Source: Escherichia virus TH41. Taken from it: a DNA stretch of 64,000 nt. Shown here piece after piece: positions 3,578-58,288 of the stretch. Numbering within the stretch: position 1 is the first letter of the stretch; the number at the start of each line of letters is the position of its first letter. Position numbers and translations under genes: made by a program. Below the pieces are notes generated by a model. It saw only the letters and a list, made by a program, of their open reading frames with translations, was not told where the DNA came from and made no database searches. The stretch lies in sequence record MT446412.1; one strand, 5' to 3'.

Positions 3578-3595
3578 ATGGGGCTTCGGCCCCAT
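3578..3595 (+). other. TTCG-tetraloop hairpin without U-tract (intercistronic 45/44)
   Basis: ATGGGGC-TTCG-GCCCCAT inverted repeat just after gene 45 stop. Confidence 0.4.
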
Positions 3596-3632: not shown

Positions 3633-4610
3633 ATGGCAACAGTAATTAACGGTTTGACAGTCAACGAATCCGACTTCATGTGGGAACAAAAATACCGCCC
3701 AGGTACATTATCAGAGTGTATTCTCCCGGCCCATGATAAAGAAACATTAGAGGCGATTGTTAAAAAAGGTTTGATTCCTAACTTGATTCTGGTCAGTAGT
3801 TCCCCTGGTACTGGTAAGACAACAGTTGCAAAAGCTATGTGTGCAGATACGAATTCTGATATGCTGTTTGTTAACGGCTCCGATTGCCGAATTGACTTTG
3901 TGCGTAATGAATTGACTCGCTTTGCATCATCCAAATCAATCGAAGGTCGCCGCAAGGTAATCGTTATCGATGAGTTTGACCGTGCAGGTCTGGCTGAATC
4001 ACAACGGCACCTCCGTAGCTTTATGGAAGCTTATTCGAGTAACTGTTCAATCATTATGACCGCGAACAATATTGATGGCATCATCACTCCGTTGCAGTCT
4101 CGTTGTCGCGTCATTAAGTTCGGTGAAGCAACTCCGGCTGACCAGACTACCATGATGAAAGAGATGATTCATCGTGCAGTTGCGGTATGTAAAAATGAAG
4201 GCGTTGAAATCGAAGACCTGAAAGTTGTTGCTGCTCTGGTTAAGCATAACTTCCCGGACCTGCGTAAGACAATTAACGAGCTTGACCGTTACTCTGCAAA
4301 GGGTGTTATCGATTCTGGTATTCTGAGTATCGTGACAAACAATCGCACGCCAATTGATGATGTGATTGATGCCCTTAAGGACCGTAATTTTAAAGTTCTC
4401 CGTGGTCTGGCTCCTAAGCATGCAAATGATTATTCAAGCTTCATTGCAAAGCTGGCTGATGAAATGTATGGCAAACTGACTGGTGCAAGTATCATCCGCA
4501 TGTATGAGATTGTAGGTGAGAATAATCAGTATCATGGCATTGCGGCCAATACCGAAGTTCACTTGACTTATCTGTTTGCTCAACTGGCTGGGGAAATGAA
4601 ATGGCTGTAA
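3633..4610 (+). CDS. 44: clamp loader large subunit gp44
   Basis: ATG at 3633 after AGGAAAA RBS; P-loop SPGTGKTT; AAA+ clamp-loader blocks near-identical to T4 gp44. Confidence 0.93.
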   Translation: MATVINGLTVNESDFMWEQKYRPGTLSECILPAHDKETLEAIVKKGLIPNLILVSSSPGTGKTTVAKAMCADTNSDMLFVNGSDCRIDFVRNELTRFASSKSIEGRRKVIVIDEFDRAGLAESQRHLRSFMEAYSSNCSIIMTANNIDGIITPLQSRCRVIKFGEATPADQTTMMKEMIHRAVAVCKNEGVEIEDLKVVAALVKHNFPDLRKTINELDRYSAKGVIDSGILSIVTNNRTPIDDVIDALKDRNFKVLRGLAPKHANDYSSFIAKLADEMYGKLTGASIIRMYEIVGENNQYHGIAANTEVHLTYLFAQLAGEMKWL

Positions 4611-5179
4611 GTCTCTTTGATGATGACGTTCAATTAAACGAACATGAGGTTGCGTGGAAATCACGCGACTTTAACAAAATTCAGGAATTGTCCGATTCAT
4701 ACAAAGAGAAAGCAGAAAATGAATTGTTCGCGATTCTTAACGACATAACCGTTAGCAAAAAACCACGGAACCTGATTCAATCGGAAAACTACAATAAATT
4801 CTGGCTGGATAACGCATTGAGTCAACATGTTGATTGCATCATGCAGGTGAACGTGATGAACTTAATCGGTTCCGGGTTAACAGACCAGCAGCATTATAAT
4901 TATTTGCTGCATGCAGTTCCGCAAGGTAAGCGTTACGGCAAATGGGCGAAGGCTGAACCGGATGTAGTCAACGTCCAGCTTGTGCTCAAGCTTTTAATGA
5001 AATATTATACAATTAATGCAGATGATGCTTTGATGTATATGGAAACATTGAAAGTCAAAGGTAGTCTTAAAGATGTTTTGAAAAAGACAAAAGGTCTGGT
5101 AACGGATGAATTCTTAAAGACCGTTACCAGTAATGTGAAAGAACAAAAAGAAATTAAAAAACAAATATTGGAATGGTAA
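4601..5179 (+). CDS. 62: clamp loader small subunit gp62
   Basis: 192 aa, start overlaps gp44 stop; size and position as T4 gp62. Confidence 0.85.
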   Translation: MAVSLFDDDVQLNEHEVAWKSRDFNKIQELSDSYKEKAENELFAILNDITVSKKPRNLIQSENYNKFWLDNALSQHVDCIMQVNVMNLIGSGLTDQQHYNYLLHAVPQGKRYGKWAKAEPDVVNVQLVLKLLMKYYTINADDALMYMETLKVKGSLKDVLKKTKGLVTDEFLKTVTSNVKEQKEIKKQILEW

Positions 5180-5180
5180 A

Positions 5181-5549
5181 ATGATTGAAATTACATTAAA
5201 GCAACCTGAAGACTTCCTGAAAGTTAAAGAAACTCTGACCCGTATGGGCATCGCAAATAATAAAGACCGTGTGCTGTACCAGAGCTGCCACATCCTCCAA
5301 AAGCAAGGTCGTTATTATATTGTTCACTTCAAAGAAATGCTGCGCATGGATGGTCGTCAGGTTGATATTGACGGTGAAGACTATCAGCGCCGTGATTCCA
5401 TCGCCCAACTGCTTGAAGACTGGGGCTTAATCGCTATCAAAGAAGAAGAGCATAATGAATTGTTCGCAGTAACAAATAACTTCCGTGTTATTTCATTCAA
5501 ACAAAAAGACGACTGGAAGCTCGTAGCCAAATATACAATTGGTAATTGA
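5181..5549 (+). CDS. regA: translational repressor RegA
   Basis: 122 aa; MIEITLK..VLYQSCHILQK..FRVISFKQK..KYTIGN matches T4 RegA. Confidence 0.93.
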   Translation: MIEITLKQPEDFLKVKETLTRMGIANNKDRVLYQSCHILQKQGRYYIVHFKEMLRMDGRQVDIDGEDYQRRDSIAQLLEDWGLIAIKEEEHNELFAVTNNFRVISFKQKDDWKLVAKYTIGN

Positions 5550-5550
5550 T

Positions 5551-5766
5551 ATGAAGCATGAAATTGAAACATGTGAACGCCTTAAAGAAGTATATGGACT
5601 TTCCCCAACTCAAACTATTTTTGACCTTTCCGAAGAACTTCAAATAGAATTTCAAAAGGAACTCAATAAATTATTGCATCCTGGACAGAGAGTCTTCCAG
5701 GCTATGGTTAGAACTAAAGATGAAAATGGTAATCCGACCATCGAACGTCGTACAATAGAAATTTAA
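5551..5766 (+). CDS. hypothetical protein (71 aa)
   Basis: ORF 5539..5766 with ATG at 5551 directly after regA stop. Confidence 0.5.
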   Translation: MKHEIETCERLKEVYGLSPTQTIFDLSEELQIEFQKELNKLLHPGQRVFQAMVRTKDENGNPTIERRTIEI

Positions 5767-5771
5767 AGCAA

Positions 5772-5790
5772 AGGGACTTCGGTCCCTTTT
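5772..5790 (+). terminator. intrinsic terminator (TTCG tetraloop)
   Basis: GGGAC-TTCG-GTCCC followed by TTTT; a TATAAT follows at about 5795. Confidence 0.7.
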
Positions 5791-5851
5791 GTAGTATAAT
5801 AGCGTCAAGTCATAAAACAAAAGTCAATCACTCGACTATAAAGGAAATCAA

Positions 5852-8566
5852 ATGCAAGAATTTTATTTAACTATCGAACAAATCGGTGACAACCTACTCG
5901 AACGATATATTGACAAGAATGGTCATGAACGTGTTCGTGAAATCCCTTATGCTCCATGCTTGTTTATGCACGCCCGCGAAGACCAAGCTGCAAAGTATAC
6001 AGACATCTATAATAAAGGTTGTGTGAAAAAAGAATTCGATTCCATGCGTGATGCATCCCAGTGGATGAAGCGAATGAATGACATGGGTCTCGAAGCTATG
6101 GGTATGGACGACTTTAAACTCGCATACTTGTCCGACCGTTACCCACACGAAATCAAATATGATTCAAGTAAAATCCGTGTTGCTAACTTCGATATCGAGG
6201 TGACATCTCCTGATGGGTTCCCTGAACCGTCTGAAGCACGTCACCCTATTGACGCCCTGACGCACTATGATTCGGTAGACGATAAATTCTATGTCTTTGA
6301 CCTTTTGGGCTCACCATACGCCACTGTGGAGCAATGGTCTATTGATATTGCTGCTAAGCTGCAGGAAGACGGTGGTGATGAAGTCCCGGAAGAAATCCTG
6401 GAAAAAATTGTTTATATGGCTTTCGATTCAGAAGAAGAAATGCTCCAGCAGTATTTGGTATTCTGGAACGAGAAAACTCCGGTTATGTTAACTGGTTGGA
6501 ACATCGAGAAGTTTGATATTCCATATATCTACAACCGCCTTAAAAATGTATTTGGTGAAGCTACAGCAAAACGTCTGAGCCCACATCGTCGTACAAAAGT
6601 TAAGGTCATTAACAACGGCTTTGGCGAAGAACAAGAAATCATTCAGATTCTGGGTATCTCTGTTCTGGATTATCTGGACCTGTATAAAAAGTTCAGCTTC
6701 ACAAACCAACCGTCTTATTCGTTGGATTATGTTGCGGAATCTGAACTGGGTGTTGGTAAACTCCCGTATGATGGCCCGATTTCTAAACTGCGCGAATCAA
6801 ATCACCAGCGGTATATTTCTTATAACATCATCGACGTTTATCGTGTTGTGCAGATTGACCGTAAGCGACAGTTTATTAACCTGAGTCAGTCAATGGGTTA
6901 TTACGCAAAAATGCAGATTCAGTCTGTATTCAGCCCAATCAAAACTTGGGATGCGATTATCTTTAACAGCTTGAAGACTCAAAACAAAGTTATTCCGGAA
7001 ACCAAATCGCATGTTCGCCAATCGTTCCCTGGTGCATTTGTTAAGGAACCTATTCCGAACGCATACAAATATGTAATGAGCTGTGACTTAACATCTCTGT
7101 ATCCGAGCATCATCCGACAGATTAACATCAGTCCAGAAACGATTGCCGGGTCATTTGCGCCAGCCCAGATGTATGAATACATCGCAGGAACTGCTGACCG
7201 TCCATCTGATACATTTAGTTGTGCTCCAAATGGTATGATGTATTTTAAAGATGTTGCGGGTATTATTCCGACAGAAGTCACCAAGGTGTTTAATCAGCGT
7301 AAAGAGCACAAAGGCTATATGCTTGCGGCTCAACGTAATGGTGAACTGATTAAGGAAGCTCTGCGTAATCCAGGAACTGGCACAACCGAACCAGAAGTTG
7401 ATTATCGTCATGACTTTGATGACAATATGAAAACGGCCCTGCATGGTCTGAATCAAACAGTCCTAAATGGTATGCTGTACAAAGCGCAGATGGAAGAAGT
7501 TGCAGGCATGACCGCACAGATTAACCGTAAACTGCTTATCAACAGTTGTTATGGCGCTCTGGGTAATATCTGGTTCCGTTACTTTGACCTGCGAAATGCA
7601 ACCGCGATTACATCTTTCGGACAACTTGCACTGCAGTGGATTGAGCGTAAAGTTAACGAATACTTCGATAGTGTTTGTGGTACAAGCGGTGAAACTTATG
7701 TGTTCTATGGCGATACTGACTCCATTTATATCCAGTGCGATAACCTGATTAAAAAGGTTGGTGGCGAATCTAAATTCCGCGATACAAACCACCTGGTTGA
7801 CTTCATGGACAAGTTTGCGAAAGACCGTCTGGAACCGGCAATCGATAAAGCTTTCCGTGAGCTGGCTGAATACATGAACAACAAACAGCACCTTATGTTT
7901 ATGGACCGTGAGGCGATTGCATGTCCTCCGCTGGGTTCGAAGGGTGTGGGTGGATTCTGGACGGCGAAGAAGCGTTATGCGTTGAACGTGTACGATATGG
8001 AAGGCACACGTTATGCTGTTCCAAAATTGAAAATCATGGGTCTGGAAACTCAAAAGTCGAGTACTCCAAAGGCATGTCAGAAAGCTCTGAAAGAATGCAT
8101 CCGCCGTATGCTGCAAGAAGGTGAAGAATCTCTGCAGACATACTTCAAGGAATTCAATAAGGAATTTAATGAGCTTAACTACATGACCATCGCAGGGGTA
8201 TCATCGGTTAACAACATCCAGAAATATAATGAAGGTGGTTTCCCTGGATTTAAGTGCCCGGCTCATATCAAAGGTGTGCTTGCATATATGCGTGCAACTA
8301 AAGGTCTGAAGACTGTTCCGCAAATCATGGAAGGGGAAAAGGTGTATGTACTTCCTCTTAAAGTCGGCAACCCATTTGGTGAAACCGTGATTGCATGGCC
8401 ATCAGGGATTGAACTCCCGATTGAAATTCGTGACCAAGTCTTGCAGTGGATGGACTACAACACACTGTTCCAGAAGACTTTTGTCAAACCGTTAACAGGT
8501 TTCTCTGAAGCTGCAAAGGTTGATTACGAAAAGAAAGCAACTCTTTTTGATATGTTTGACTTTTAA
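5852..8566 (+). CDS. 43: DNA polymerase gp43 (family B)
   Basis: 904 aa; exonuclease and polymerase motifs (FDIE, YGDTDS); C-terminal clamp-binding tail TLFDMFDF. Confidence 0.95.
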   Translation: MQEFYLTIEQIGDNLLERYIDKNGHERVREIPYAPCLFMHAREDQAAKYTDIYNKGCVKKEFDSMRDASQWMKRMNDMGLEAMGMDDFKLAYLSDRYPHEIKYDSSKIRVANFDIEVTSPDGFPEPSEARHPIDALTHYDSVDDKFYVFDLLGSPYATVEQWSIDIAAKLQEDGGDEVPEEILEKIVYMAFDSEEEMLQQYLVFWNEKTPVMLTGWNIEKFDIPYIYNRLKNVFGEATAKRLSPHRRTKVKVINNGFGEEQEIIQILGISVLDYLDLYKKFSFTNQPSYSLDYVAESELGVGKLPYDGPISKLRESNHQRYISYNIIDVYRVVQIDRKRQFINLSQSMGYYAKMQIQSVFSPIKTWDAIIFNSLKTQNKVIPETKSHVRQSFPGAFVKEPIPNAYKYVMSCDLTSLYPSIIRQINISPETIAGSFAPAQMYEYIAGTADRPSDTFSCAPNGMMYFKDVAGIIPTEVTKVFNQRKEHKGYMLAAQRNGELIKEALRNPGTGTTEPEVDYRHDFDDNMKTALHGLNQTVLNGMLYKAQMEEVAGMTAQINRKLLINSCYGALGNIWFRYFDLRNATAITSFGQLALQWIERKVNEYFDSVCGTSGETYVFYGDTDSIYIQCDNLIKKVGGESKFRDTNHLVDFMDKFAKDRLEPAIDKAFRELAEYMNNKQHLMFMDREAIACPPLGSKGVGGFWTAKKRYALNVYDMEGTRYAVPKLKIMGLETQKSSTPKACQKALKECIRRMLQEGEESLQTYFKEFNKEFNELNYMTIAGVSSVNNIQKYNEGGFPGFKCPAHIKGVLAYMRATKGLKTVPQIMEGEKVYVLPLKVGNPFGETVIAWPSGIELPIEIRDQVLQWMDYNTLFQKTFVKPLTGFSEAAKVDYEKKATLFDMFDF

Positions 8567-15686: not shown

Positions 15687-15852
15687 GATTTCCGTATTCG
15701 AGATTTTTGAAGAATATGAAATCGTGTCGCAAGACCAAGAAGCAATCCATGTTATCGCTGATGATGGTGTTACCTGGATTATTCCGTTGTATCATGAAGA
15801 CACTTATGAAGTGACTGATGCAAATGGTGATAAAGCTGTCTTCGTTGTATAA
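15661..15852 (+). CDS. hypothetical acidic protein (63 aa)
   Basis: ORF overlapping the previous ORF end. Confidence 0.45.
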   Translation: MSAMCTGSKISVFEIFEEYEIVSQDQEAIHVIADDGVTWIIPLYHEDTYEVTDANGDKAVFVV

Positions 15853-15855
15853 ATA
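15848..15855 (+). promoter_or_regulatory. late-promoter-like TATAAATA box
   Basis: Exact TATAAATA 17 nt upstream of a small ORF ATG; overlaps the preceding stop codon. Confidence 0.4.
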
Positions 15856-15871
15856 GCGGAAAGGGGGTGTT

Positions 15872-16039
15872 ATGAAAACATTCAAAGATTTTATCAACGA
15901 AAATATGGTTGCCGGTGATGCAGGTGGAAATCCAACTAATATCGCAACAGGTACCACTTCCGGGGCAGTTGTCAATAAAGGCCCTGAACAAATCCCATCA
16001 AAAAAGCGTAAGAACAAAGACGATAAACCTACAGTATAA
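15872..16039 (+). CDS. small hypothetical protein (55 aa)
   Basis: ATG after GGGGGTG RBS; MKTFKDFINEN...KKRKNKDDKPTV; below the ORF-track size cutoff. Confidence 0.35.
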   Translation: MKTFKDFINENMVAGDAGGNPTNIATGTTSGAVVNKGPEQIPSKKRKNKDDKPTV

Positions 16040-16071
16040 TGGTCCTCCGGGGCCATTGAAATGAGGAAACT

Positions 16072-17100
16072 ATGTCATATATTGATAAAGAATTTGCGGT
16101 TAGAGCTTTATCGTATCAACCACGTTATAGAGAAGTCACCGGGAGCACATTTAAAGCAAACTGTCGTTGCAAGGTTTGTGGGGACTCCCAGAAAGATTCA
16201 CACAAGGCTCGATTCTGGGCGTATACTAATCCGGCTGATGGCGCGGTTTACGTGAAATGTTTTAACTGTGACTACTCCACGCATATAAGCAAATACATAA
16301 AAGAGTTTGAGCCGGATTTACACTGGGAATATATGGTTGAGAAGTATAAGGAGAATGCCTTTGGCAGACAACGTAATGAAGTTGCCGAAACTCCGAAAGA
16401 ACCAGAAAAAACTCCGGTTATCGAAGAGCTTGCTTTTTGTGAAAGACTCGATACTTTACCAGAAGCGCATCCTATAATTAAGTATGTAAAAAGTCGGTGT
16501 ATTCCTAGCAATGTTTGGAACCGGTTATGGTTTACAAACAAATGGCCTGCATTAGTTAACTCCGTTAATCCTGGGACGTATAAGAATGAAACGAATGAAC
16601 CACGCTTGGTTATTCCTATCTTCAACGGCAAAAAAGAAATCGAATCTTTCCAAGGACGAGCTCTTCGCAAAGATGCACCACAAAAATATATCACAATCAA
16701 AGCTCACCCAGAAGCTTCCAAAGTCTATGGTGTAGACAAGATTGATGAGCGCAAGCGCGTGTGGGTAATGGAAGGTCCGATTGATAGTTTGTTTATCCCT
16801 AACAGCATTGCGATAACTGGTGGAACATTGTCATTGGAAGCCGTTCCTTATCCAGAAACCAGAGTATGGGTAATGGACAACGAACCAAGACATCCGGATA
16901 CGATTAAACGTATGAAGAAGCTCGTTGAAGCTGGCGAAGCTGTTATGTTCTGGGACAATGCACCATGGCATACGAAAGACATAAATGAGATGGTTAAATC
17001 AGAAGGAGCAACCCCTGAACAAATCGAATCATATATGGCTGATAACGTTGCCCAAGGATTGATGGCGAGAATGCGACTTTCGAAGTACGCAAAAGTTTAG
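16072..17100 (+). CDS. 61: DNA primase gp61
   Basis: 342 aa as in T4; N-terminal zinc ribbon CRCKVCGDS...CFNCDYS plus TOPRIM-like core. Confidence 0.93.
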   Translation: MSYIDKEFAVRALSYQPRYREVTGSTFKANCRCKVCGDSQKDSHKARFWAYTNPADGAVYVKCFNCDYSTHISKYIKEFEPDLHWEYMVEKYKENAFGRQRNEVAETPKEPEKTPVIEELAFCERLDTLPEAHPIIKYVKSRCIPSNVWNRLWFTNKWPALVNSVNPGTYKNETNEPRLVIPIFNGKKEIESFQGRALRKDAPQKYITIKAHPEASKVYGVDKIDERKRVWVMEGPIDSLFIPNSIAITGGTLSLEAVPYPETRVWVMDNEPRHPDTIKRMKKLVEAGEAVMFWDNAPWHTKDINEMVKSEGATPEQIESYMADNVAQGLMARMRLSKYAKV

Positions 17101-18389: not shown

Positions 18390-18397
18390 TATAAATA
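18390..18397 (+). promoter_or_regulatory. late promoter TATAAATA upstream of soc
   Basis: Exact TATAAATA about 30 nt upstream of the soc ATG. Confidence 0.5.
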
Positions 18398-18428
18398 CAC
18401 CTGTAATTAAACAACAAAGGAGTTAATT

Positions 18429-18662
18429 ATGGGTGGTTTCGTTAATATCAAAACCTTTACGCATCCAGCTGGTGAAGGTAAAGAAGTTAAAGGTGTTGAA
18501 GTATCTGTTCCGTTTGAAATCTATTCAAATGAGCACCGTATTGCCAATGCTCATTATCAGACTTTTCCTTCCGAAAAGGCCGCTTATGTCACCGTAGCGT
18601 CTAGTGCAGCTGATTGGCGAACTAAGAACGCGGCGATGTTTACGCCTACCCCAGTAGTTTAA
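18429..18662 (+). CDS. soc: small outer capsid protein Soc
   Basis: 77 aa; GFVNIKTF...HYQTFPSEKAAY blocks match T4 Soc; late promoter upstream. Confidence 0.7.
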   Translation: MGGFVNIKTFTHPAGEGKEVKGVEVSVPFEIYSNEHRIANAHYQTFPSEKAAYVTVASSAADWRTKNAAMFTPTPVV

Positions 18663-18665
18663 TTA

Positions 18666-18690
18666 TAGGGAACCTTCGGGTTCCCTTTTT
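18666..18690 (+). terminator. intrinsic terminator (TTCG tetraloop)
   Basis: GGGAACC-TTCG-GGTTCCC followed by TTTTT. Confidence 0.7.
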
Positions 18691-26325: not shown

Positions 26326-26355
26326 GTGTACAAACTCGTGGGGCCAGAGTATAAT
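26326..26355 (+). promoter_or_regulatory. early promoter cassette
   Basis: GTGTACA, 17 nt, TATAAT flanked by GGGGCCA..TGGTCCC imperfect inverted repeat. Confidence 0.6.
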
Positions 26356-26889: not shown

Positions 26890-26939
26890 ATTATAAAATA
26901 ATGATAGGGTAATTTTGCCCTATCAATGAGGAGAATATT

Positions 26940-27983: not shown

Positions 27984-28382
27984 ATGTTTAAAATTGGAAA
28001 GAGTTATTGCATTAAAGATTTAGATGGCTTCCTTAAACATGTCGGTATGCCTGGTAGCATTTTGAACCAACAAGGAACCTCTATCATTGATTTGGTTACT
28101 ACCAAAGAGTTTTCAGTCACTAAGATGGAAGCAAATGTTGTTACGGAATTTAGTACTATAGATGGAACTGGATTTTCTTTCCATAGTCGTAATGGAACCG
28201 GTCTTATTTTTGGTGATGAATTTAAATATTTTGAAGAAGTCCCGGAATGTGATTCTGAAATAACCGAACAGGAATCAAAAGAGGATATCGTTGTTACCGG
28301 CGGCGATGTTATTATTACGGTTAAAACTGAAGCCGGCCGTCTACAAGCTATTAAAATGTTAGAGCAGCTTCGATTCAAATAA
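27984..28382 (+). CDS. hypothetical protein (132 aa)
   Basis: ORF 27807..28382 with ATG at 27984 after GAGGA RBS. Confidence 0.5.
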   Translation: MFKIGKSYCIKDLDGFLKHVGMPGSILNQQGTSIIDLVTTKEFSVTKMEANVVTEFSTIDGTGFSFHSRNGTGLIFGDEFKYFEEVPECDSEITEQESKEDIVVTGGDVIITVKTEAGRLQAIKMLEQLRFK

Positions 28383-28383
28383 A

Positions 28384-28401
28384 AGGCCTTCGGGCCTTTT
28401 T
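28384..28401 (+). terminator. intrinsic terminator (TTCG tetraloop)
   Basis: AGGCC-TTCG-GGCCT followed by TTTTT. Confidence 0.65.
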
Positions 28402-28425
28402 GCTTTAAAATATGTGACTTATAAT
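28399..28425 (+). promoter_or_regulatory. candidate MotA-dependent middle promoter for gene 39
   Basis: ttTGCTTtA, 12-nt spacer, TATAAT. Confidence 0.45.
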
Positions 28426-28447: not shown

Positions 28448-30280
28448 ATGATGATTAATAATGAAATTAAAGTACTCTCGGACGTCGAGCATATCAAAAA
28501 ACGTTCCGGGATGTATATTGGTTCCAGTTCAAATGAAGCGCATGAGCGATTCTTGTTTGGTGAATATAAGTCTGTAAGCTATGTTCCTGGTATTGTAAAA
28601 CTGATTGATGAAATTATCGATAACTCTGTTGATGAAGCAATTCGCACCAGTTTTAAATTTGCCAATAAAATTGATGTTCAAATTAAAGATAATCAGATTT
28701 CGGTTTCTGATAATGGTCGTGGTATTCCTCAAGCAATGGTTACAGACCAAAACGGTGAACAAATCCCTGGCCCTGTTGCAGCATGGACTATTCCAAAAGC
28801 CGGTGGCAACTTCGGTGATGATGCTGAACGTAAAACTGGCGGGATGAATGGTGTCGGGTCTTCTCTGACCAATATTTTCTCTGTATTGTTCACCGGGATT
28901 ACCTCTGATGGAGCAAACGAAATTACTGTTAACTGCTCCAACGGTATGGAAAACAAAGGTTGGTCCACCAAGAAATCTAAGGGCAAAGGTACAACTGTTA
29001 TATTTGTTCCAGATTTTAGTCACTTTGAAGAAAATAGTCTGTCCCAGATTTATCTGGATATTACATTGGACCGTTTACAGACTCTCGCGGTTGTTTATCC
29101 GGATATTCAGTTCACCTTTAATGGTAAAAAGGTTGATGGTAATTTCAAGAAGTTCTCCAAGCAATTCGGAACCGAAGTTGTTATCCAGGAAACTGATACA
29201 GTATCAATGGCTTTTACGACCAGCCCGGATGGTTTCCGTCAGTTGACTTATGTCAACAACATTCATACAAAGAATGGCGGACACCACGTTGAATGTGTTA
29301 TGGATGATATCTGTGAACACCTTCAGCCTGCGATTAAGCGCAAATATAAAGGCATCGAGGTGACCAAGGCACGAGTTAAAGAATGCCTCACCATGCTTAT
29401 GTTCATCCGCGATATGAGCAACATGCGATTTGATTCCCAGACCAAGGAGCGATTGACTTCTCCGGCTGGTGAAATTCGAAATCACATTAAGATTGATGCT
29501 AAGAAAATCGCACAAGCTATTCTGAAAAATGAACCGCTGATTATGCCGATTGTTGAAGCTGCATTGGCTCGTAAATTGGCTGCAGAGAAAGCAGCAGAGA
29601 CCAAGGCGAATAAGAAAGCTTCGAAGGCCAAGGTGCAGAAACACATCAAGGCAAACGAATGGGGCAATGATAAGCTGGAAACGACTCTATTCCTGACCGA
29701 AGGGGATTCTGCAACTGGTCCATTTATCAAGGTTCGCGACCGTGAATTGCAAGGTGCTTATCCATTACGTGGTAAGTTTAAAAACACATGGGGTCTGAAA
29801 GCTGTTGAAGTTATGAAGAACGCTGAAGCCTTTGATGTGTGTGCAATTACTGGGTTAACGATTGGACAACCGGCCGAGAATATGAATTACCGAAACATTG
29901 CTATCATGACAGATGCGGATGTGGATGGTGTCGGTAGTATCTATCCATCGTTATTGGCGTTTTTCAGTAACTGGCCAGAGTTGTTCCATGAAGGACGAAT
30001 TCGCTTTGTGAAAACACCTGTTATTATTGCACAGCTCAAAGATAAACAAGAATGGTTCTATTCTCTTCCTGACTATGAAGAAGCTAAGGATAAACTTCCG
30101 AAGCACACCATCCGATATATCAAGGGGCTTGGTTCTCTGGAAGATTCCGAGTACAAACGCGTATTGCTCGAACCGGTATTCGAAGTTGTTCAATTGCCCG
30201 ACAACTGGAAAGAACTGTTCGAAATGCTATTCGGTAAAGATTCCCAGCAGCGTAAAGACTGGATGAATGCGACGCTATAA
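28448..30280 (+). CDS. 39: DNA topoisomerase II large subunit gp39 (GyrB-like), uninterrupted
   Basis: 610 aa; GHKL ATPase and TOPRIM blocks collinear with T-even gp39; no separate gene 60. Confidence 0.93.
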   Translation: MMINNEIKVLSDVEHIKKRSGMYIGSSSNEAHERFLFGEYKSVSYVPGIVKLIDEIIDNSVDEAIRTSFKFANKIDVQIKDNQISVSDNGRGIPQAMVTDQNGEQIPGPVAAWTIPKAGGNFGDDAERKTGGMNGVGSSLTNIFSVLFTGITSDGANEITVNCSNGMENKGWSTKKSKGKGTTVIFVPDFSHFEENSLSQIYLDITLDRLQTLAVVYPDIQFTFNGKKVDGNFKKFSKQFGTEVVIQETDTVSMAFTTSPDGFRQLTYVNNIHTKNGGHHVECVMDDICEHLQPAIKRKYKGIEVTKARVKECLTMLMFIRDMSNMRFDSQTKERLTSPAGEIRNHIKIDAKKIAQAILKNEPLIMPIVEAALARKLAAEKAAETKANKKASKAKVQKHIKANEWGNDKLETTLFLTEGDSATGPFIKVRDRELQGAYPLRGKFKNTWGLKAVEVMKNAEAFDVCAITGLTIGQPAENMNYRNIAIMTDADVDGVGSIYPSLLAFFSNWPELFHEGRIRFVKTPVIIAQLKDKQEWFYSLPDYEEAKDKLPKHTIRYIKGLGSLEDSEYKRVLLEPVFEVVQLPDNWKELFEMLFGKDSQQRKDWMNATL

Positions 30281-30283
30281 ATA
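30276..30283 (+). promoter_or_regulatory. late-promoter-like TATAAATA box
   Basis: Exact TATAAATA overlapping the gp39 stop, about 40 nt upstream of a small ORF. Confidence 0.35.
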
Positions 30284-30286
30284 GAT

Positions 30287-30306
30287 ACGGGAGAATATTC
30301 TCCCGT
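30287..30306. other. perfect 20-nt palindrome
   Basis: ACGGGAGAATATTCTCCCGT is fully self-complementary. Confidence 0.5.
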
Positions 30307-30322
30307 CTTATAGGAGAAGTCC

Positions 30323-30475
30323 ATGAAAAAGTGGTGGGTTACGTTGTCAAATGGCGAATACGGTTATCTGTGGGCCGATACTAAACCCCTGTTTGCATCC
30401 TTTGTCACCATTATGTGCGAGACCTGGGATGGTGAATACTATACCGCGTATGGGCAAGTCTATAAAGTTGAGTAG
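30323..30475 (+). CDS. small hypothetical protein (50 aa)
   Basis: ATG after GGAGAAG RBS; MKKWWVTLSNGEYGYLW...; followed by terminator. Confidence 0.35.
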   Translation: MKKWWVTLSNGEYGYLWADTKPLFASFVTIMCETWDGEYYTAYGQVYKVE

Positions 30476-30478
30476 CCA

Positions 30479-30501
30479 AAAGGACCTTCGGGTCCTTTTT
30501 T
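30479..30501 (+). terminator. intrinsic terminator (TTCG tetraloop)
   Basis: AGGACC-TTCG-GGTCCT followed by TTTTTT. Confidence 0.7.
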
Positions 30502-30551
30502 ATTATGTACAAGCCATAAAAATTGCGTTAAGATGTCCTTGAGGTGAAAAT

Positions 30552-30836
30552 ATGATTATGTCTGACGGAAGTTTAGTTAATCTACAGAATGTTGCTCGTT
30601 GTATTATGGAAGCAGGCCTGAGGAAGGTGCAGGAGCTCCCAGATAGCGACAGGAAGCGAAGTTACTTGTTGGCTGTAAGAGCATCAGCCATGAGCATTAA
30701 GGCTGGCCAGAAGGTTCCTGAGGAGCGAATTGAAGCACTCCTTGCATTGATATACCATGGCCAAGAACATAAAGCTACCATGCGTAGTATGAGAAAAATA
30801 TTACAGGAGATTGGAAATGACGAACTTCAAAGTTAA
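30552..30836 (+). CDS. hypothetical protein (94 aa)
   Basis: ORF with GAGGTGA RBS. Confidence 0.5.
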   Translation: MIMSDGSLVNLQNVARCIMEAGLRKVQELPDSDRKRSYLLAVRASAMSIKAGQKVPEERIEALLALIYHGQEHKATMRSMRKILQEIGNDELQS

Positions 30837-31020
30837 TATGGAACTGTTTGATAAGGCTATCCATAAAGAGTACCGTGTTATCCAACGATTTTTTGATATA
30901 AGAGAAGCTGAAGAGTTTAAAGAACGCTTCAAAGAAATCCGTATTAAAATAGCTTCAGACACCGCAACAAAGGATGAACTTCTTGAAGTTGCAGAATTAA
31001 TCAAACGTAACATAAAGTGA
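30817..31020 (+). CDS. hypothetical protein (67 aa; T4 rIIA.1 position)
   Basis: ORF 30811..31020; ATG at 30817 after GGAGA. Confidence 0.45.
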   Translation: MTNFKVNMELFDKAIHKEYRVIQRFFDIREAEEFKERFKEIRIKIASDTATKDELLEVAELIKRNIK

Positions 31021-31027
31021 GAAAAAC

Positions 31028-33262
31028 ATGATTTTAGAAACTGAAAAGGAAACAATCCTTGGTAATGGTGCCAAGGCATCAGCATTCACAATCCAGGCAT
31101 CTCCAAAGGTGTTTAAGATTCTGACCAGCGACCTTTATACAAACAAGGTGCGTGCGGTTGTTCGTGAGCTGATTACCAATATGATTGATGCTCATATGCT
31201 CAATGGTTGTCAGGATAAATTCATTGTGCAAGCTCCTGGTGAACTGGACCCACGTTTTGTATGCCGTGACTTTGGTCCGGGTATGAGTGATTTCCAGATT
31301 CGTGGTGATGAAAATACCCCAGGTCTGTATAACAGTTTCTTTGCATCATCCAAGGCTGAATCCAACGATTTTATTGGCGGCTTTGGTCTGGGCTCTAAAT
31401 CTCCGTTCAGTTATACAGAGACGTTTAGCCTGATTTCATATCACGATGGTCAAGTTAATGGTTATGTCGCTTATATGGACGGCGATGGCCCACAGATTAA
31501 ACCAACCTTTAGCGAACCAATGAAACCTGGTGACCGCACGGGGATTGAAGTTGTTGTCCCGGTTGATAGTAATGATTTTGGTAAGTTCCGCTACGAGATT
31601 GCATATATCATGCGTCCATTTGCTGGACTGGCTGAAGTGCAAGGCGTAAGCGAAATTGAATACTTCCCGGAATTTGATGATTATTATGCTCCAGAGCGTA
31701 TTAATTATAGCAGCCCAGAACGTTATGGTCTTTATGCAATTTACGGTGGAATTGTTTATCCAATTGCCGACGGTTATACAAAGAAAACCTGGATGACTGC
31801 CAAAAACGATGTTGTCTTTATTAAGTTCCCGATGGGTTCGTTGGATATTGCACCTTCTCGCGAAGCATTATCACTGGATAAACGTACGGTCGCAAATATC
31901 GTTGAACGTATTGAATCCCTTGATAAGAAAGTCATGGAAGATGATTGTAAGAAATGGCAGGAATCAGAATGTATCCGCCACACGTATCGCGAATTACAGA
32001 GTCTGAGTTATGAAGCTCGTAATTTTCTGAAAGCTCGTAATGCTGAAACGAAATTTACGAAATCGCAATTGACCTTTAACCAGATGTATGAAATGTTCGA
32101 GCTGGACAAAGACCTTATTAATGCCGGGGTTGTCTATGATATCTATAGCACTACCCGTCTGAAACGTCTGCGTAACTCAAGCTCGAACACGAATACTGCA
32201 AGTCTGACGAGCATGTTTGGTATTCAGAATAATACCTTGAACATTGTTATTGACGATGCTAAAGGGCGAATTGCGATGATTCGTGGTATCAGTTCAATGC
32301 TATATGACACCAGCGCGAAAGCCAAAAAGCTCAAAGCATCTGGTAAAGTCCCGACTGTACAAGGTAGTAGTCTATTGTTCGTTGACCCAACCAGCGAAAT
32401 TCAAACACGTCTGATGGTTCAACTTCAAGAACGATTTAAAGGCGATACAGTTAATATCTATCGTACGTCTGAACTGACCGCCCTTGTAAAAGACTGGATT
32501 CCGGTTGCTGACCCGAAAGCGCGCGTTAAGTCAAAGACTCCATCATTGATTCGTTGGACTAAAACTAATGGCAAATGGCAGTCTGTTGAAGAATTTACAT
32601 GTGCAGCTGATGCAGAGGAAATCGATGGTTATGCTGTATTCATTAACCGCAGTAGCATTTCCCCGTTGAATCAAGAATATGGCACCACGACCTTCGGGAC
32701 CCAGACATTGTGTAAACTGGCAAACCTGTTGGAAATCAATGAATTCTGTGTTATTCGTCCACAGCTTCAGAAAAAGATTACCAAGCTGGCGCAGTGTGAT
32801 TGTCTGATTGAAGCTGCAGTCAATCGTTATGTGGAATTGATTGATGCGGTTGATGCGGACCAGTACATTGCCGCTTCAAGCCGTTCGCGTTATTATATTC
32901 CTATCCTGTCTGAATATGCAGAACTGAATTTTATGTTCAAGTATTTTTATGCAAAAGATGTTCAGAAAGATGTGAATACTGACTATGCCGAATTAATGCA
33001 GTTCAATAAGTTCTTTGCTTATAACGCATATAACAGTGGAACAGTTGATAAGACCATGCAGGAAACTCTGGTCCTTTGTAATAAGATTTATGACGACCTG
33101 ACCAAAAACGCTTCGGTAACAAGCGATAAAATGGTTTTTGAATTTGAAAAGAATCACCCGATTGTTTCACACTTTTTATATAACCGTAACGCCATGTCAA
33201 CTGAACAAGTACAGAACGTTGCTCAAATCATGAAGGCCGTGGAAGCGGCCAATAAGGAATAA
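31028..33262 (+). CDS. rIIA: rIIA protein
   Basis: 744 aa; N-terminal GHKL-ATPase-like region; size and position as T4 rIIA. Confidence 0.9.
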   Translation: MILETEKETILGNGAKASAFTIQASPKVFKILTSDLYTNKVRAVVRELITNMIDAHMLNGCQDKFIVQAPGELDPRFVCRDFGPGMSDFQIRGDENTPGLYNSFFASSKAESNDFIGGFGLGSKSPFSYTETFSLISYHDGQVNGYVAYMDGDGPQIKPTFSEPMKPGDRTGIEVVVPVDSNDFGKFRYEIAYIMRPFAGLAEVQGVSEIEYFPEFDDYYAPERINYSSPERYGLYAIYGGIVYPIADGYTKKTWMTAKNDVVFIKFPMGSLDIAPSREALSLDKRTVANIVERIESLDKKVMEDDCKKWQESECIRHTYRELQSLSYEARNFLKARNAETKFTKSQLTFNQMYEMFELDKDLINAGVVYDIYSTTRLKRLRNSSSNTNTASLTSMFGIQNNTLNIVIDDAKGRIAMIRGISSMLYDTSAKAKKLKASGKVPTVQGSSLLFVDPTSEIQTRLMVQLQERFKGDTVNIYRTSELTALVKDWIPVADPKARVKSKTPSLIRWTKTNGKWQSVEEFTCAADAEEIDGYAVFINRSSISPLNQEYGTTTFGTQTLCKLANLLEINEFCVIRPQLQKKITKLAQCDCLIEAAVNRYVELIDAVDADQYIAASSRSRYYIPILSEYAELNFMFKYFYAKDVQKDVNTDYAELMQFNKFFAYNAYNSGTVDKTMQETLVLCNKIYDDLTKNASVTSDKMVFEFEKNHPIVSHFLYNRNAMSTEQVQNVAQIMKAVEAANKE

Positions 33263-58258: not shown

Positions 58259-58288
58259 GTGTACAACCAAATGGGGCTATGACATAAT
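58259..58288 (+). promoter_or_regulatory. early promoter cassette
   Basis: GTGTACA, 17 nt, CATAAT; leader CCATACTGAGTT. Confidence 0.6.

What the first reader, a model, noticed from the sequence alone, without database searches (positions are those of the whole stretch)
30276..30501. Late box, 20-nt palindrome, micro-ORF and terminator packed between gene 39 and rIIA
A TATAAATA overlaps the gp39 stop and is followed by the perfect palindrome ACGGGAGAATATTCTCCCGT (30287-30306). A 50-aa Trp/Tyr-rich ORF (30323..30475) and a strong terminator follow. The palindrome could be a bidirectional terminator, a protein-binding site or an RNA-processing site.
Basis: seen in the sequence. Interest (0 to 1): 0.4.

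Follow-up and report, generated by a model that had tools for sequence, protein, structure and literature searches.

The report
Late-gene cassette between gene 39 and rIIA
The interval is an ordinary but neatly built T4-type control region: a late promoter, a conserved RNA hairpin, a real 50-amino-acid phage gene of unknown function and a terminator, which together form a small exchangeable gene cassette found in many T4-like phages but not in T4.

Summary
All four features are present at the stated coordinates. The window is a Gaprivervirus, a T4-like coliphage about 99.5% identical to phage vB_EcoM_RZ.

- **Late box:** (T/A)ATAAATA is invariant in 32 distinct relatives from at least 12 genera. 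It occurs only where the small gene is present.
- **Palindrome:** it is a sense-strand RNA hairpin. The structure is kept in nearly every lineage, but the sequence is not. Cognate arms fold at -11.9 kcal/mol against -4.1 for arms swapped between lineages. All 10 model pairs covary. G·U pairs occur almost only on the + strand. It is therefore not a sequence-specific DNA site and not a bidirectional terminator.
- **Micro-ORF:** it is a real gene (phrog_4369, dN/dS 0.02-0.1) with a confident four-strand beta model. Its function is unknown.
- **Terminator:** it is canonical, and an early promoter follows it.
- **Cassette exchange:** compared with VR7, bases 30307-30505 form a replaced island (63-72% identity against 92-96% in the flanks). 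The hairpin and the terminator bound the island.

The hairpin's job is inferred, not shown. The predicted late start lies inside its 5' arm, yet bases upstream of that start covary. It therefore most likely acts on RNA read through from gene 39, as a 3' boundary or stabiliser. This is a new member of a known kind, of modest interest.

The parts
28381..28425 (+). Context: a terminator hairpin (28381-28400) followed by a MotA-box-like TGCTTTA (28401-28407) and TATAAT (28420-28425). This is the likely middle-mode promoter that feeds gene 39 and reads into the interval.
   Evidence: Sequence read; hairpin listed. The promoter assignment is by consensus only, from my own knowledge of the T4 MotA box.
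28448..30280 (+). Gene 39, DNA topoisomerase II large subunit. It is 610 aa, the unsplit 39+60 form. Its stop TAA lies at 30278-30280.
   Evidence: ORF; annotated as such in RZ, VR7 and VR26.
30276..30283 (+). T4-type (gp55) late promoter box TATAAATA, overlapping the gp39 stop. The predicted late start is about 30289 (+/-1).
   Evidence: ATAAATA is invariant in 32 of 32 distinct relatives. It is TATAAATA in Gaprivervirus, TG1 and L053, and AATAAATA elsewhere. It is fully non-coding in TG1 and L053. It is absent from every gp39 locus that lacks the small gene. TATAAATA (32 of 50 sites) and A(-13) (9 of 50) are the two commonest natural T4 late-promoter forms (PMC2988020).
30287..30306 (+). Sense-strand RNA hairpin with an 8-bp stem and an AUAU loop. 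The core GGGAGAAUAUUCUCCC spans 30289-30304.
   Evidence: -13 kcal/mol, z = -4.0. A helix of 8-12 bp starts 0-5 nt after the box in nearly all lineages, each with a different sequence. Cognate against swapped arms: -11.9 against -4.1 kcal/mol. 92% of cells paired and 10 of 10 pairs with changes on both sides. + strand bias.
30312..30316 (+). Shine-Dalgarno AGGAG of the small gene, 5 nt after the hairpin and 6 nt before the ATG.
   Evidence: Sequence; an A/G-rich SD sits at the same place in all relatives.
30323..30475 (+). Conserved 50-aa gene (phrog_4369; VR7 ORF004c). It is a small all-beta protein of unknown function.
30478..30505 (+). Intrinsic terminator: 9-bp stem, UUCG loop and a T-run.
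   Evidence: Found by the scan; -12.4 kcal/mol. The other Gaprivervirus clade has an unrelated stem (GGTCTCC-TTCG-GGAGACC) with the same loop and T-run. A hairpin plus T-run follows the ORF in all 13 other lineages examined.
30506..30534 (+). Early (sigma-70-type) promoter TGTACA-17-TAAGAT for the DUF7367 gene, rIIA.1 and rIIA. Together with the terminator it forms a PeSL-like terminator/promoter unit.
   Evidence: TGTACA-N17-TANNNT occurs 9 times, all on the + strand, against 0.87 expected. The stretch is nearly invariant in 14 Gaprivervirus genomes.
30307..30505 (+). Replaced (mosaic) segment, 63-72% identical to VR7 where the flanks are 92-96% identical.
   Evidence: Pairwise identity profile; the boundaries are visible in the alignment.

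Best explanation
The interval is a self-contained late-gene cassette set inside the middle/early transcription unit that runs from gene 39 towards rIIA.

**Early and middle infection.** RNA started upstream of gene 39 reads through the gp39 stop into the cassette. On that read-through RNA the 8-bp hairpin forms directly after the stop codon. My best guess for its role is a 3' boundary. It would block 3'-exonucleases, possibly next to an endonuclease cut in the A/U-rich 5-8 nt between the hairpin and the SD. That would keep the gene 39 message stable and separate it from the small gene.

**Late infection.** gp55-RNA polymerase starts at TATAAATA (30276-30283), about 6 nt downstream of the box and therefore inside the hairpin's 5' arm. 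It makes an mRNA of about 215 nt for the 50-aa protein, which ends at the UUCG terminator (30478-30505). An early promoter (30506-34) then restarts transcription for the downstream genes.

**Exchange.** The hairpin and the terminator/promoter also mark the borders at which the cassette has been swapped between phages.

**Shown by computation:** the sequence features, their conservation, covariation of the helix, its strand, purifying selection on the ORF, and the mosaic boundaries.

**Inferred:** promoter activity, the start site, read-through, and above all the hairpin's biochemical role.

**Confidence by part.** The overall figure of 0.5 is for the whole statement. I put the cassette architecture (late promoter, real gene, terminator, early promoter) at about 0.85 and the hairpin being a sense-strand RNA element at about 0.85. 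The specific 3'-boundary role I put at about 0.35.
For: - **Box.** ATAAATA is invariant in 32 of 32 distinct relatives across at least 12 genera, in different gp39 C-terminal coding contexts. It is fully non-coding in TG1 and L053.
- **Link to the small gene.** The box co-occurs strictly with the small gene. T4, the L059/L065/L080 type and the Aeromonas-phage-type loci lack both.
- **Box as late-promoter marker in this genome.** The same octamer precedes gp34, gp36, holin t and soc in this window.
- **Natural variants.** Both forms seen here are natural T4 late-promoter variants (PMC2988020).
- **Hairpin structure.** Median z is -3.6 across lineages. Cognate arms fold at -11.9 kcal/mol against -4.1 +/- 2.5 for chimeric arms. 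On the model-fitted alignment 92.3% of cells pair against 62.9% when shuffled (0 of 500 shuffles reach it) and 30-49% when the partner is slid. All 10 pairs change on both sides.
- **Unambiguous subgroup.** UA<->CG and GC<->AU swaps occur in a subgroup whose alignment is not in doubt.
- **Strand.** The + strand fold is favoured in 19 of 26 lineages, p = 6e-5.
- **Covariation upstream of the late start.** Covarying pairs include positions 1-5 nt after the box, upstream of the predicted late start. So the selected RNA must begin upstream.
- **Read-through source.** Gene 39 has a terminator plus a MotA-like promoter upstream of it, and the scan lists no strong + strand terminator between that promoter and the hairpin.
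- **Cassette-less relatives.** In most of them a hairpin follows the gp39 stop within 0-5 nt.
- **Similar junctions.** Stop-hairpin-SD junctions without a T-tract recur in this genome at 3578, 16037 and 26902.
- **ORF and terminator.**
- **Mosaic island.**
Against: - There are no transcript ends, RNA half-lives or peptides for any phage that carries the cassette. I found no transcript-mapping data for such a phage in two literature searches.
- Two lineages (L053 and Shewanella phage Thanatos) keep the box, ORF and terminator with no convincing hairpin. The hairpin is therefore dispensable for expressing the gene.
- The hairpin's position is tied to the box as tightly as to the stop codon. In TG1 and L076 it follows the box, 14-18 nt after the stop. 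A purely gene-39-centred role is therefore not singled out.
- The match to the RegB consensus (GGAGRAYARAA, PMC3014915) is poor.
- The model-fitted alignment leans towards the structure.
- The late start is assumed from T4 (box at -13 to -6), not mapped.
Confidence: 0.5

Rival explanations
1. Translational discrimination of the soc/e type. The full hairpin forms only in RNA read through from gene 39. It lowers translation of the small gene early, for example by occupying the leader just upstream of the SD where the 30S subunit and S1 dock. Late RNA starts inside the 5' arm, lacks the full helix and is translated well.
For: The geometry is the same as the classical T4 cases: a late box directly before the 5' arm, with the predicted start inside it. 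The soc gene in this same window shows the classical form (PMC3014915). The calculated cost of opening SD..AUG is higher in read-through RNA than in late RNA in 20 of 23 relatives, median +1.9 kcal/mol.
Against: The 3' arm ends 3-6 nt upstream of the SD and never contains the SD or the AUG. In the window itself the difference in opening cost is 0.0 kcal/mol. The same calculation gives -0.7 to +5.7 for unrelated late genes and only +1.6 for the soc control, so it does not discriminate. Mean unpaired probability is 0.48 against 0.53. In Gaprivervirus the late RNA would still carry a 6-bp hairpin of about -10 kcal/mol.
Confidence: 0.22
2. 5'-terminal stabiliser of the late mRNA. Because the helix straddles the start site, any start within the 5' arm leaves a stem-loop flush with the 5' end. 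That would protect the short late mRNA from 5'-end-dependent RNase E and RppH attack. This is the principle described for the ompA 5' stem-loop, which I cite from my own knowledge.
For: The base 6 nt after the box is a purine in 28 of 29 lineages. The predicted late RNA begins with a flush residual hairpin of 3-7 bp: 6 bp in the window (GGGAGA/UCUCCC), where the predicted late leader folds at -12.8 kcal/mol with a second small hairpin. The transcript would then carry a hairpin at both ends.
Against: In about half of the lineages the residual helix is marginal (3-5 bp, -4 kcal/mol or weaker). Selection visibly maintains pairs upstream of the predicted start, which a late RNA would not contain. 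Other late promoters in the window have no such hairpin.
Confidence: 0.15
3. DNA-level palindrome: a binding site for a dimeric protein, a cruciform, a recombination site recognised as DNA, or a bidirectional or minus-strand terminator.
For: In the window the 20-mer is a perfect DNA palindrome. On the - strand it is followed by ATCTATTTAT and is flagged as terminator-like. The mosaic boundary lies at its 3' edge.
Against: The sequence is not conserved between genera, which argues against sequence-specific binding. G·U pairs and folding energy favour the + strand RNA; they would be A·C mismatches in DNA or in - strand RNA. Close relatives already break the DNA symmetry at the outer pairs. Every sizeable ORF from 27.5 to 34 kb is on the + strand, so no converging gene needs a - strand terminator here.
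Confidence: 0.05

Closest known systems
T4 dual-transcript genes soc, e, 49 and I-TevI: a late promoter inside a hairpin that sequesters the ribosome-binding site in early read-through RNA (reviewed in PMC3014915)
   Same: A TATAAATA box lies directly upstream of, or within, the 5' arm of a stable hairpin. The gene lies downstream of early/middle genes on the same strand, and the predicted late start falls inside the helix. The soc homologue in this very window (18390-18662) shows the classical form.
   Different: Here the 3' arm stops 3-6 nt before the SD, and neither the SD nor the AUG is paired with the arm. No consistent change in RBS accessibility could be computed.
PeSLs, the composite terminator/early-promoter cassettes of T4-like phages proposed to mediate modular shuffling (PMC2839356, PMC4122927)
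   Same: A stem-loop terminator abuts a sigma-70-type early promoter (30478-30534). The element lies at the edge of an indel (cassette present or absent between genera) and at the edge of a replaced island within the genus.
   Different: The left border of the island is a late box plus a hairpin without a U-tract, not a PeSL. I did not compare the sequence with published PeSL consensus motifs.
Canonical T4 late transcription units (gp55/gp33/gp45-dependent TATAAATA promoters; PMC2988020)
   Same: The octamer is identical to the consensus, with AATAAATA in relatives (the commonest natural variant). The spacing to the start codon (39 nt) is within, or close to, the 16-35 nt seen for gp34, gp36, t and soc in this window.
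   Different: It drives a single 50-aa gene embedded in an early region. The box overlaps the stop codon of an early/middle gene. Activity has not been tested.
phrog_4369, the family of roughly 50-aa hypothetical proteins of T4-like phages (VR7 ORF004c, S16 gp2.1, PEi26 ORF-004)
   Same: Full-length match at E = 3.9e-29. Same length and same position between gene 39 and rIIA.1.
   Different: None; the window's gene is a member. The family has no known function. The label 'head vertex assembly chaperone' in one record is not supported by any search made here.

Membership tests
T4-type (gp55) late promoter | Octamer TATAAATA, or a known single-base variant, at -13 to -6 | tested here: met
   TATAAATA at 30276-30283. 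Relatives carry TATAAATA or AATAAATA. These are the two commonest T4 forms, 32 and 9 of 50 sites (PMC2988020).
T4-type (gp55) late promoter | Lies on the coding strand a few tens of nt upstream of an SD plus start codon, and is conserved independently of any overlapping coding sequence | tested here: met
   39 nt from box to ATG. Invariant in 32 of 32 distinct sequences with differing gp39 C-termini, and non-coding in TG1 and L053. Absent wherever the small gene is absent.
T4-type (gp55) late promoter | A gp55/gp33/gp45-dependent RNA 5' end about 6 nt downstream of the box, late in infection | not testable with these tools
   No transcript data are available. Literature searches found none for phages that carry the cassette.
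Intrinsic (Rho-independent) terminator: the 30478-30505 element | G+C-rich stem-loop followed directly by a U-tract on the transcribed strand | tested here: met
   9-bp stem, UUCG loop and TTTTTTATT. The stem is replaced by an unrelated complementary one in the other clade. A hairpin plus T-run is present in 13 other lineages.
Intrinsic (Rho-independent) terminator: the 30287-30306 palindrome | U-tract directly after the stem on the strand in question | tested here: not met
   The + strand tail is CUUAUAGGAG, with 3 T in 8. Relatives have AUAAAAGGAG or AAUAAGGAG. The - strand tail is T-rich only because it is the complement of the late box, and the helix is biased to the + strand.
soc/e/49/I-TevI-type RBS-sequestering hairpin | Late promoter at or in the 5' arm, so that the late start lies inside the helix | tested here: met
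   The stem starts 0-5 nt after the box in nearly all lineages, and the predicted +1 is 6 nt after the box. The start site is predicted, not mapped.
soc/e/49/I-TevI-type RBS-sequestering hairpin | The 3' arm contains the Shine-Dalgarno sequence and/or the start codon | tested here: not met
   The 3' arm ends at 30306, the SD is at 30312-16 and the ATG at 30323. The same gap of 3-6 nt is seen in relatives.
soc/e/49/I-TevI-type RBS-sequestering hairpin | The RBS is less accessible in read-through RNA than in late RNA | tested here: inconclusive
   0.0 kcal/mol difference in the window and a median of +1.9 in relatives. Control genes range from -0.7 to +5.7, and the soc control gives only +1.6.
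PeSL (terminator / early-promoter cassette) | A stem-loop terminator adjacent to a strong sigma-70-like early promoter | tested here: met
   Terminator at 30478-30505 and TGTACA-17-TAAGAT at 30506-30534. The promoter motif occurs 9 times on the + strand against 0.87 expected.
PeSL (terminator / early-promoter cassette) | Lies at the boundary of indels or replacements between related genomes | tested here: met
   The right edge of the 63-72% island lies at the terminator T-run. The cassette is absent in T4 and in the L059-type loci.
PeSL (terminator / early-promoter cassette) | Sequence similarity to the published PeSL consensus of RB49/phi1 or T4/PST | not tested
   I read only the abstract, introduction and opening genome comparison of PMC4122927.
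phrog_4369 small protein | Full-length profile match | tested here: met
   E = 3.9e-29, residues 1-50 against profile positions 1-50 of 50.

The most novel reading that the evidence does not exclude
The late box and the hairpin that straddles its start site may form a distinct, conserved regulatory module, which could be called a 'late-promoter stem-loop'. It would differ from the classical soc/e switch in that it never touches the ribosome-binding site. It would have two roles. First, it would mark RNA made from upstream (full helix) as different from RNA made from the late promoter (truncated, 5'-flush helix), giving the two different fates. Second, it would serve, like PeSLs, as the left-hand crossover point for exchanging small late-gene cassettes between T4-like phages.
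Probability: 0.15. Interest if true: 0.5.

Novelty: new member of a known kind. Interest (0 to 1): 0.33.

Why it matters
- **Annotation.** A 'hypothetical' 50-aa ORF is shown to be a real, selected gene with its own predicted late promoter and terminator. The gene occurs in hundreds of T4-like phage genomes, many of them therapeutic candidates against Klebsiella, Enterobacter and E. coli.
- **A clean example of RNA structure conservation.** The hairpin is kept in structure across at least 12 genera while its sequence turns over completely. It lies exactly where an early/middle message and a late message overlap. That makes it a simple, testable system for asking how T4-type phages give different fates to two transcripts of the same gene without hiding the ribosome-binding site.
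- **Genome shuffling.** The 200-bp replaced island bounded by the hairpin and the terminator/promoter adds a concrete case to the idea that regulatory stem-loops are the joints of modular genome shuffling.
- **Limits.** None of this overturns known T4 biology.

Tried and rejected
- **Rfam** scan of 30100-30700 at E <= 10: only sub-threshold chance hits.
- **Pfam** for the 50-aa protein: no match.
- **PDB by sequence profile:** the only hits were designer beta-propellers ('Cake', 'Scone'). These come from summing nine repeats of 2.7 bits each and are spurious.
- **BFVD:** only members of its own family.
- **The search for homologous proteins:** one hit, an N-terminally extended copy, so no deep alignment was available for structure prediction.
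- **phmmer against 1.84 billion representatives:** only 3 clusters, all 52-56 aa, with no fusions that could hint at function.
- **RegB site idea:** the SD context GGAGAAGTCCA fits the GGAGRAYARAA consensus poorly, so I did not pursue it.
- **RBS sequestration:** two accessibility calculations were made. Neither was discriminating, and the soc positive control itself gave only a small signal.
- **Plain MAFFT alignment of the leaders** put the stems out of register. I replaced it with a covariance-model alignment.
- **Literature searches** for transcript maps of phages that carry the cassette found nothing usable.
- **In-genus invariance of the 16-nt core:** I considered this as evidence of sequence-specific recognition and rejected it. 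At a background identity of 92%, 16 unchanged bases are expected about a quarter of the time (0.92^16, my arithmetic).
Full report
**What the window is.** The 421 bases around the finding are 99.5% identical to Escherichia phage vB_EcoM_RZ. They are 81-99% identical to 32 other phage records, and those checked against their records belong to the genus Gaprivervirus (Straboviridae, Tevenvirinae). All sizeable ORFs from 27.5 to 34 kb are on the + strand. In order they are:
- gene 39, the unsplit 610-aa topoisomerase II large subunit (28448-30280);
- the 50-aa ORF (30323-30475);
- a DUF7367 gene (30552-30836);
- rIIA.1 (30817-31020);
- rIIA (31028-33262).

These assignments rest.

**Checking the observation.**
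- TATAAATA lies at 30276-30283 and overlaps the TAA stop at 30278-30280.
- The perfect 20-nt palindrome lies at 30287-30306.
- AGGAG lies at 30312-30316 and the ATG at 30323.
- A 9-bp hairpin with a UUCG loop lies at 30478-30499, followed by a T-run.

The palindrome is the longest perfect one in the 64 kb. It folds at -13 kcal/mol with z = -4.0. TATAAATA by count alone is not remarkable: 8 sites against 4.5 expected. However, six of the eight sites lie 16-39 nt upstream of an SD plus start codon. Four of those genes are textbook late genes: long-tail-fibre gp34, gp36, holin t and soc. In this genome the octamer is therefore a good marker of late promoters.

**The small ORF is a real gene.**
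- It matches phrog_4369 over its full length (E = 3.9e-29).
- tblastn finds it in 328 phage records. These include Gaprivervirus, Dhakavirus, Kanagawavirus, Winklervirus, Kagamiyamavirus, Jiaodavirus, Tegunavirus, Moonvirus, Karamvirus and Gelderlandvirus, other Klebsiella phages not typed to genus, and a Shewanella phage. In every record checked it lies just after gene 39.
- Substitutions are overwhelmingly synonymous. dN/dS is 0.02-0.11 wherever dS is not saturated.
- A single-sequence AlphaFold2 model is confident (pLDDT 92) and shows four beta strands.
- Pfam has nothing. The PDB sequence hits are repeat artefacts.
- An exhaustive phmmer search of 1.84 billion representatives finds three clusters, all 52-56 aa.

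The function therefore stays unknown. The label 'head vertex assembly chaperone' in one public record has no support here.

**The late box.** I compared 32 distinct upstream sequences.
- ATAAATA is invariant in all of them. The octamer is TATAAATA in Gaprivervirus, Tegunavirus and L053, and AATAAATA elsewhere.
- The gp39 C-terminus around it varies (…ATL*, …WMS*, …WMSE*). In TG1 and L053 the box is entirely non-coding. Coding constraint on gp39 therefore does not explain it.
- I fetched 80 loci through the gp39 C-terminus. Every usable locus with the small gene has the box. The loci that lack the gene have no box at the gp39 stop; two (L099, L101) carry a TATAAATA 15-18 nt further downstream, ahead of an unrelated gene. 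Those lacking the gene include the T4 group, the L059/L065/L080 type, L061 and the Aeromonas-phage type.
- T4 itself goes straight from the gene 60 stop to an early promoter and rIIA.1.
- According to the review of T4 late transcription, 32 of 50 T4 late sites are TATAAATA and nine have A at -13. The box sits about one helical turn upstream of the start (PMC2988020).

The simplest reading is a late promoter dedicated to the small gene. Its activity is inferred, not shown.

**The palindrome is a sense-strand RNA hairpin.**
- In nearly every lineage a helix of 8-12 bp begins 0-5 nt after the box and ends 3-6 nt before the SD. Its sequence is unrelated between genera. The median z against shuffles is -3.6.
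- Joining the 5' half of one lineage to the 3' half of another destroys the helix. Cognate arms fold at -11.9 kcal/mol and chimeras at -4.1 +/- 2.5. 87.5% of cognates reach -8 kcal/mol, against 6.3% of chimeras.
- In a subgroup whose alignment is not in doubt, two pairs show double compensatory changes (UA<->CG, GC<->AU) and three show G·U intermediates.
- I built a covariance model from that subgroup and aligned 26 hits from 25 loci to it; one hit is the reverse strand of the same site in L031. On that alignment 92.3% of cells pair, against 62.9% when shuffled (0 of 500 shuffles reach it) and 30-49% when the partner is slid. All ten pairs change on both sides. This alignment is fitted to the model, so it leans towards the structure. 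The arm-swap test does not depend on any alignment.
- The + strand RNA folds better than the - strand in 19 of 26 lineages, with 25 G·U pairs against 2 (p = 6e-5).

This rules against a DNA palindrome, a cruciform and a minus-strand terminator. It also shows that the perfect DNA symmetry in the window is a peculiarity of its own sub-lineage; RZ and VR26 already have G·T at the outer pairs. No U-tract follows the helix on the + strand, so it is not a canonical terminator either. Rfam has no matching family.

**How the hairpin most likely works.** With the T4 spacing, the late start falls 6 nt after the box. That position is a purine in 28 of 29 lineages and lies inside the 5' arm. Yet the pairs made by the first one to five nucleotides after the box also covary. 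The RNA on which selection acts must therefore start upstream. That RNA would be the message read through from gene 39, which has its own terminator plus a MotA-like promoter at 28381-28425.

Three roles remain possible.

1. **A 3' boundary or stabiliser for the gene 39 message.** This may act together with a cut in the A/U-rich spacer before the SD.
   - In most cassette-less relatives a hairpin follows the gp39 stop within 0-5 nt.
   - Stop-hairpin-SD junctions without a T-tract recur in this genome.
   - Weak point: in TG1 the helix follows the box rather than the stop. Also, two lineages lack the helix.
2. **A soc/e-like translational switch** (PMC3014915). The geometry matches, and soc in this very window shows the classical form. 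But the 3' arm never includes the SD or the AUG. My accessibility calculations do not discriminate: 0.0 kcal/mol in the window, a median of +1.9 in relatives, -0.7 to +5.7 in the control genes, and +1.6 for soc.
3. **A 5'-flush stabiliser of the late mRNA.** This is plausible in Gaprivervirus, where the residual stem has 6 bp (the -12.8 kcal/mol is for the whole predicted late leader, which also forms a second small hairpin). It is marginal in about half of the lineages.

I rank them 1 > 2 > 3. I regard the choice as open, and only experiments can settle it.

**Terminator, downstream promoter and the mosaic.** The terminator is canonical.
- The second Gaprivervirus clade has a wholly different complementary stem with the same UUCG loop and T-run.
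- All 13 other lineages examined have a hairpin plus T-run after the ORF.

Immediately after the terminator lies TGTACA-17-TAAGAT. This motif, TGTACA-N17-TANNNT, occurs nine times in the window, always on the + strand, against 0.87 expected. It is therefore the early promoter type of this phage. Together with the terminator it forms a PeSL-like terminator/promoter unit (PMC2839356; PMC4122927). In several other genera no promoter fits between the terminator and the next gene. There the downstream genes must be reached by read-through.

Against VR7, the flanks are 92-96% identical. Bases 30307-30505 (SD, ORF and terminator) are only 63-72% identical. This is a replaced cassette whose joints fall at the 3' edge of the hairpin and at the terminator T-run. 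It also means the in-genus invariance of the hairpin core carries little weight; the cross-genus data carry the argument.

**Verdict.** The palindrome is an RNA element rather than a bidirectional terminator or a DNA-binding site. The whole is a compact late-gene cassette built from known T4-type parts. It is widespread in T4-like phages but absent from T4, and it encodes a small beta protein of unknown function. It is a new member of a known kind and of modest interest. The unusual point is a structurally conserved hairpin that straddles a late start site without touching the ribosome-binding site.

Noticed in passing
window 18390-18686 (+): The soc homologue (18429-18662, phrog_1715 'virion structural protein') has TATAAATA at 18390-18397. 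A 13-bp hairpin (CACCTGTAATTAA / TTAATTATGGGTG) follows at once and buries the SD and the AUG. This is the classical T4 soc/e arrangement. A UUCG terminator follows at 18667-18686.
   Followed up: partly
window 14310, 21111, 26327, 30506, 35726, 36943, 37355, 42640, 56192 (+): TGTACA-N17-TANNNT occurs 9 times, all on the + strand, against 0.87 expected. This is the phage's early-promoter family. At 26327, 36943, 37355 and 14310 the spacer and the -10 box lie inside a strong hairpin (for example GTGGGGCC-AGAGTATAAT-GGTCCCAC). A similar site at 58271 has a different spacing. A promoter embedded in a stem-loop is an odd arrangement.
   Followed up: partly
window 30307-30505 compared with VR7 (L002): A roughly 200-bp island of 63-72% identity sits in a 92-96% background. 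It covers the SD, the small gene and the terminator. Two alleles of the cassette therefore circulate within Gaprivervirus, with crossover points at the hairpin and at the terminator/promoter.
   Followed up: yes
window 28381-28425 (+): Upstream of gene 39 lie a UUCG terminator (AAAAGGCCTTCGGGCCTTTT), then TGCTTTA (MotA-box-like) and TATAAT 12 nt later. This looks like a T4-type middle promoter.
   Followed up: no
window 15848-16058 (+): This looks like another small late-promoter unit. TATAAATA at 15848 lies 16 nt before a 55-aa ORF (15872-16039, phrog_1823, unknown function). The ORF's stop lies in a hairpin without a T-tract (16037-16058), directly before the SD of the next gene, a 342-aa ORF at 16072.
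   Followed up: partly
window 3578-3595, 16037-16058, 26902-26925 (+): Stop-hairpin-SD junctions without a T-tract recur between + strand genes. The class of the 30287 hairpin (an intercistronic stem-loop right before an SD) therefore seems general in this genome.
   Followed up: no
L005 (Yersinia phage vB_YenM_P8) and L006 (phage EAWsc9): Public records name these small genes inconsistently. The 50-aa gene is called 'head vertex assembly chaperone'. The DUF7367 gene is called 'RecA-like recombination protein' in one record and 'ZapA' in another. None of these names is backed by the Pfam or PHROG matches obtained here.
   Followed up: partly
L059, L065, L080 (IMG/VR contigs of about 144-170 kb): In these relatives, which lack the cassette, the gp39 stop is followed by TT-AAAGGGC-TTCG-GCCCTTT-GGAGG and then the DUF7367 gene. 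That is the junction one would get by deleting everything between the cassette's left edge and its terminator.
   Followed up: no
L001 (phage RZ record) 3829-6058: In the RZ record rIIA is annotated as two overlapping CDS (3829-5103 and 5093-6058), whereas the window has one intact 744-aa rIIA. This is probably a frameshift or a sequencing error in that record.
   Followed up: no
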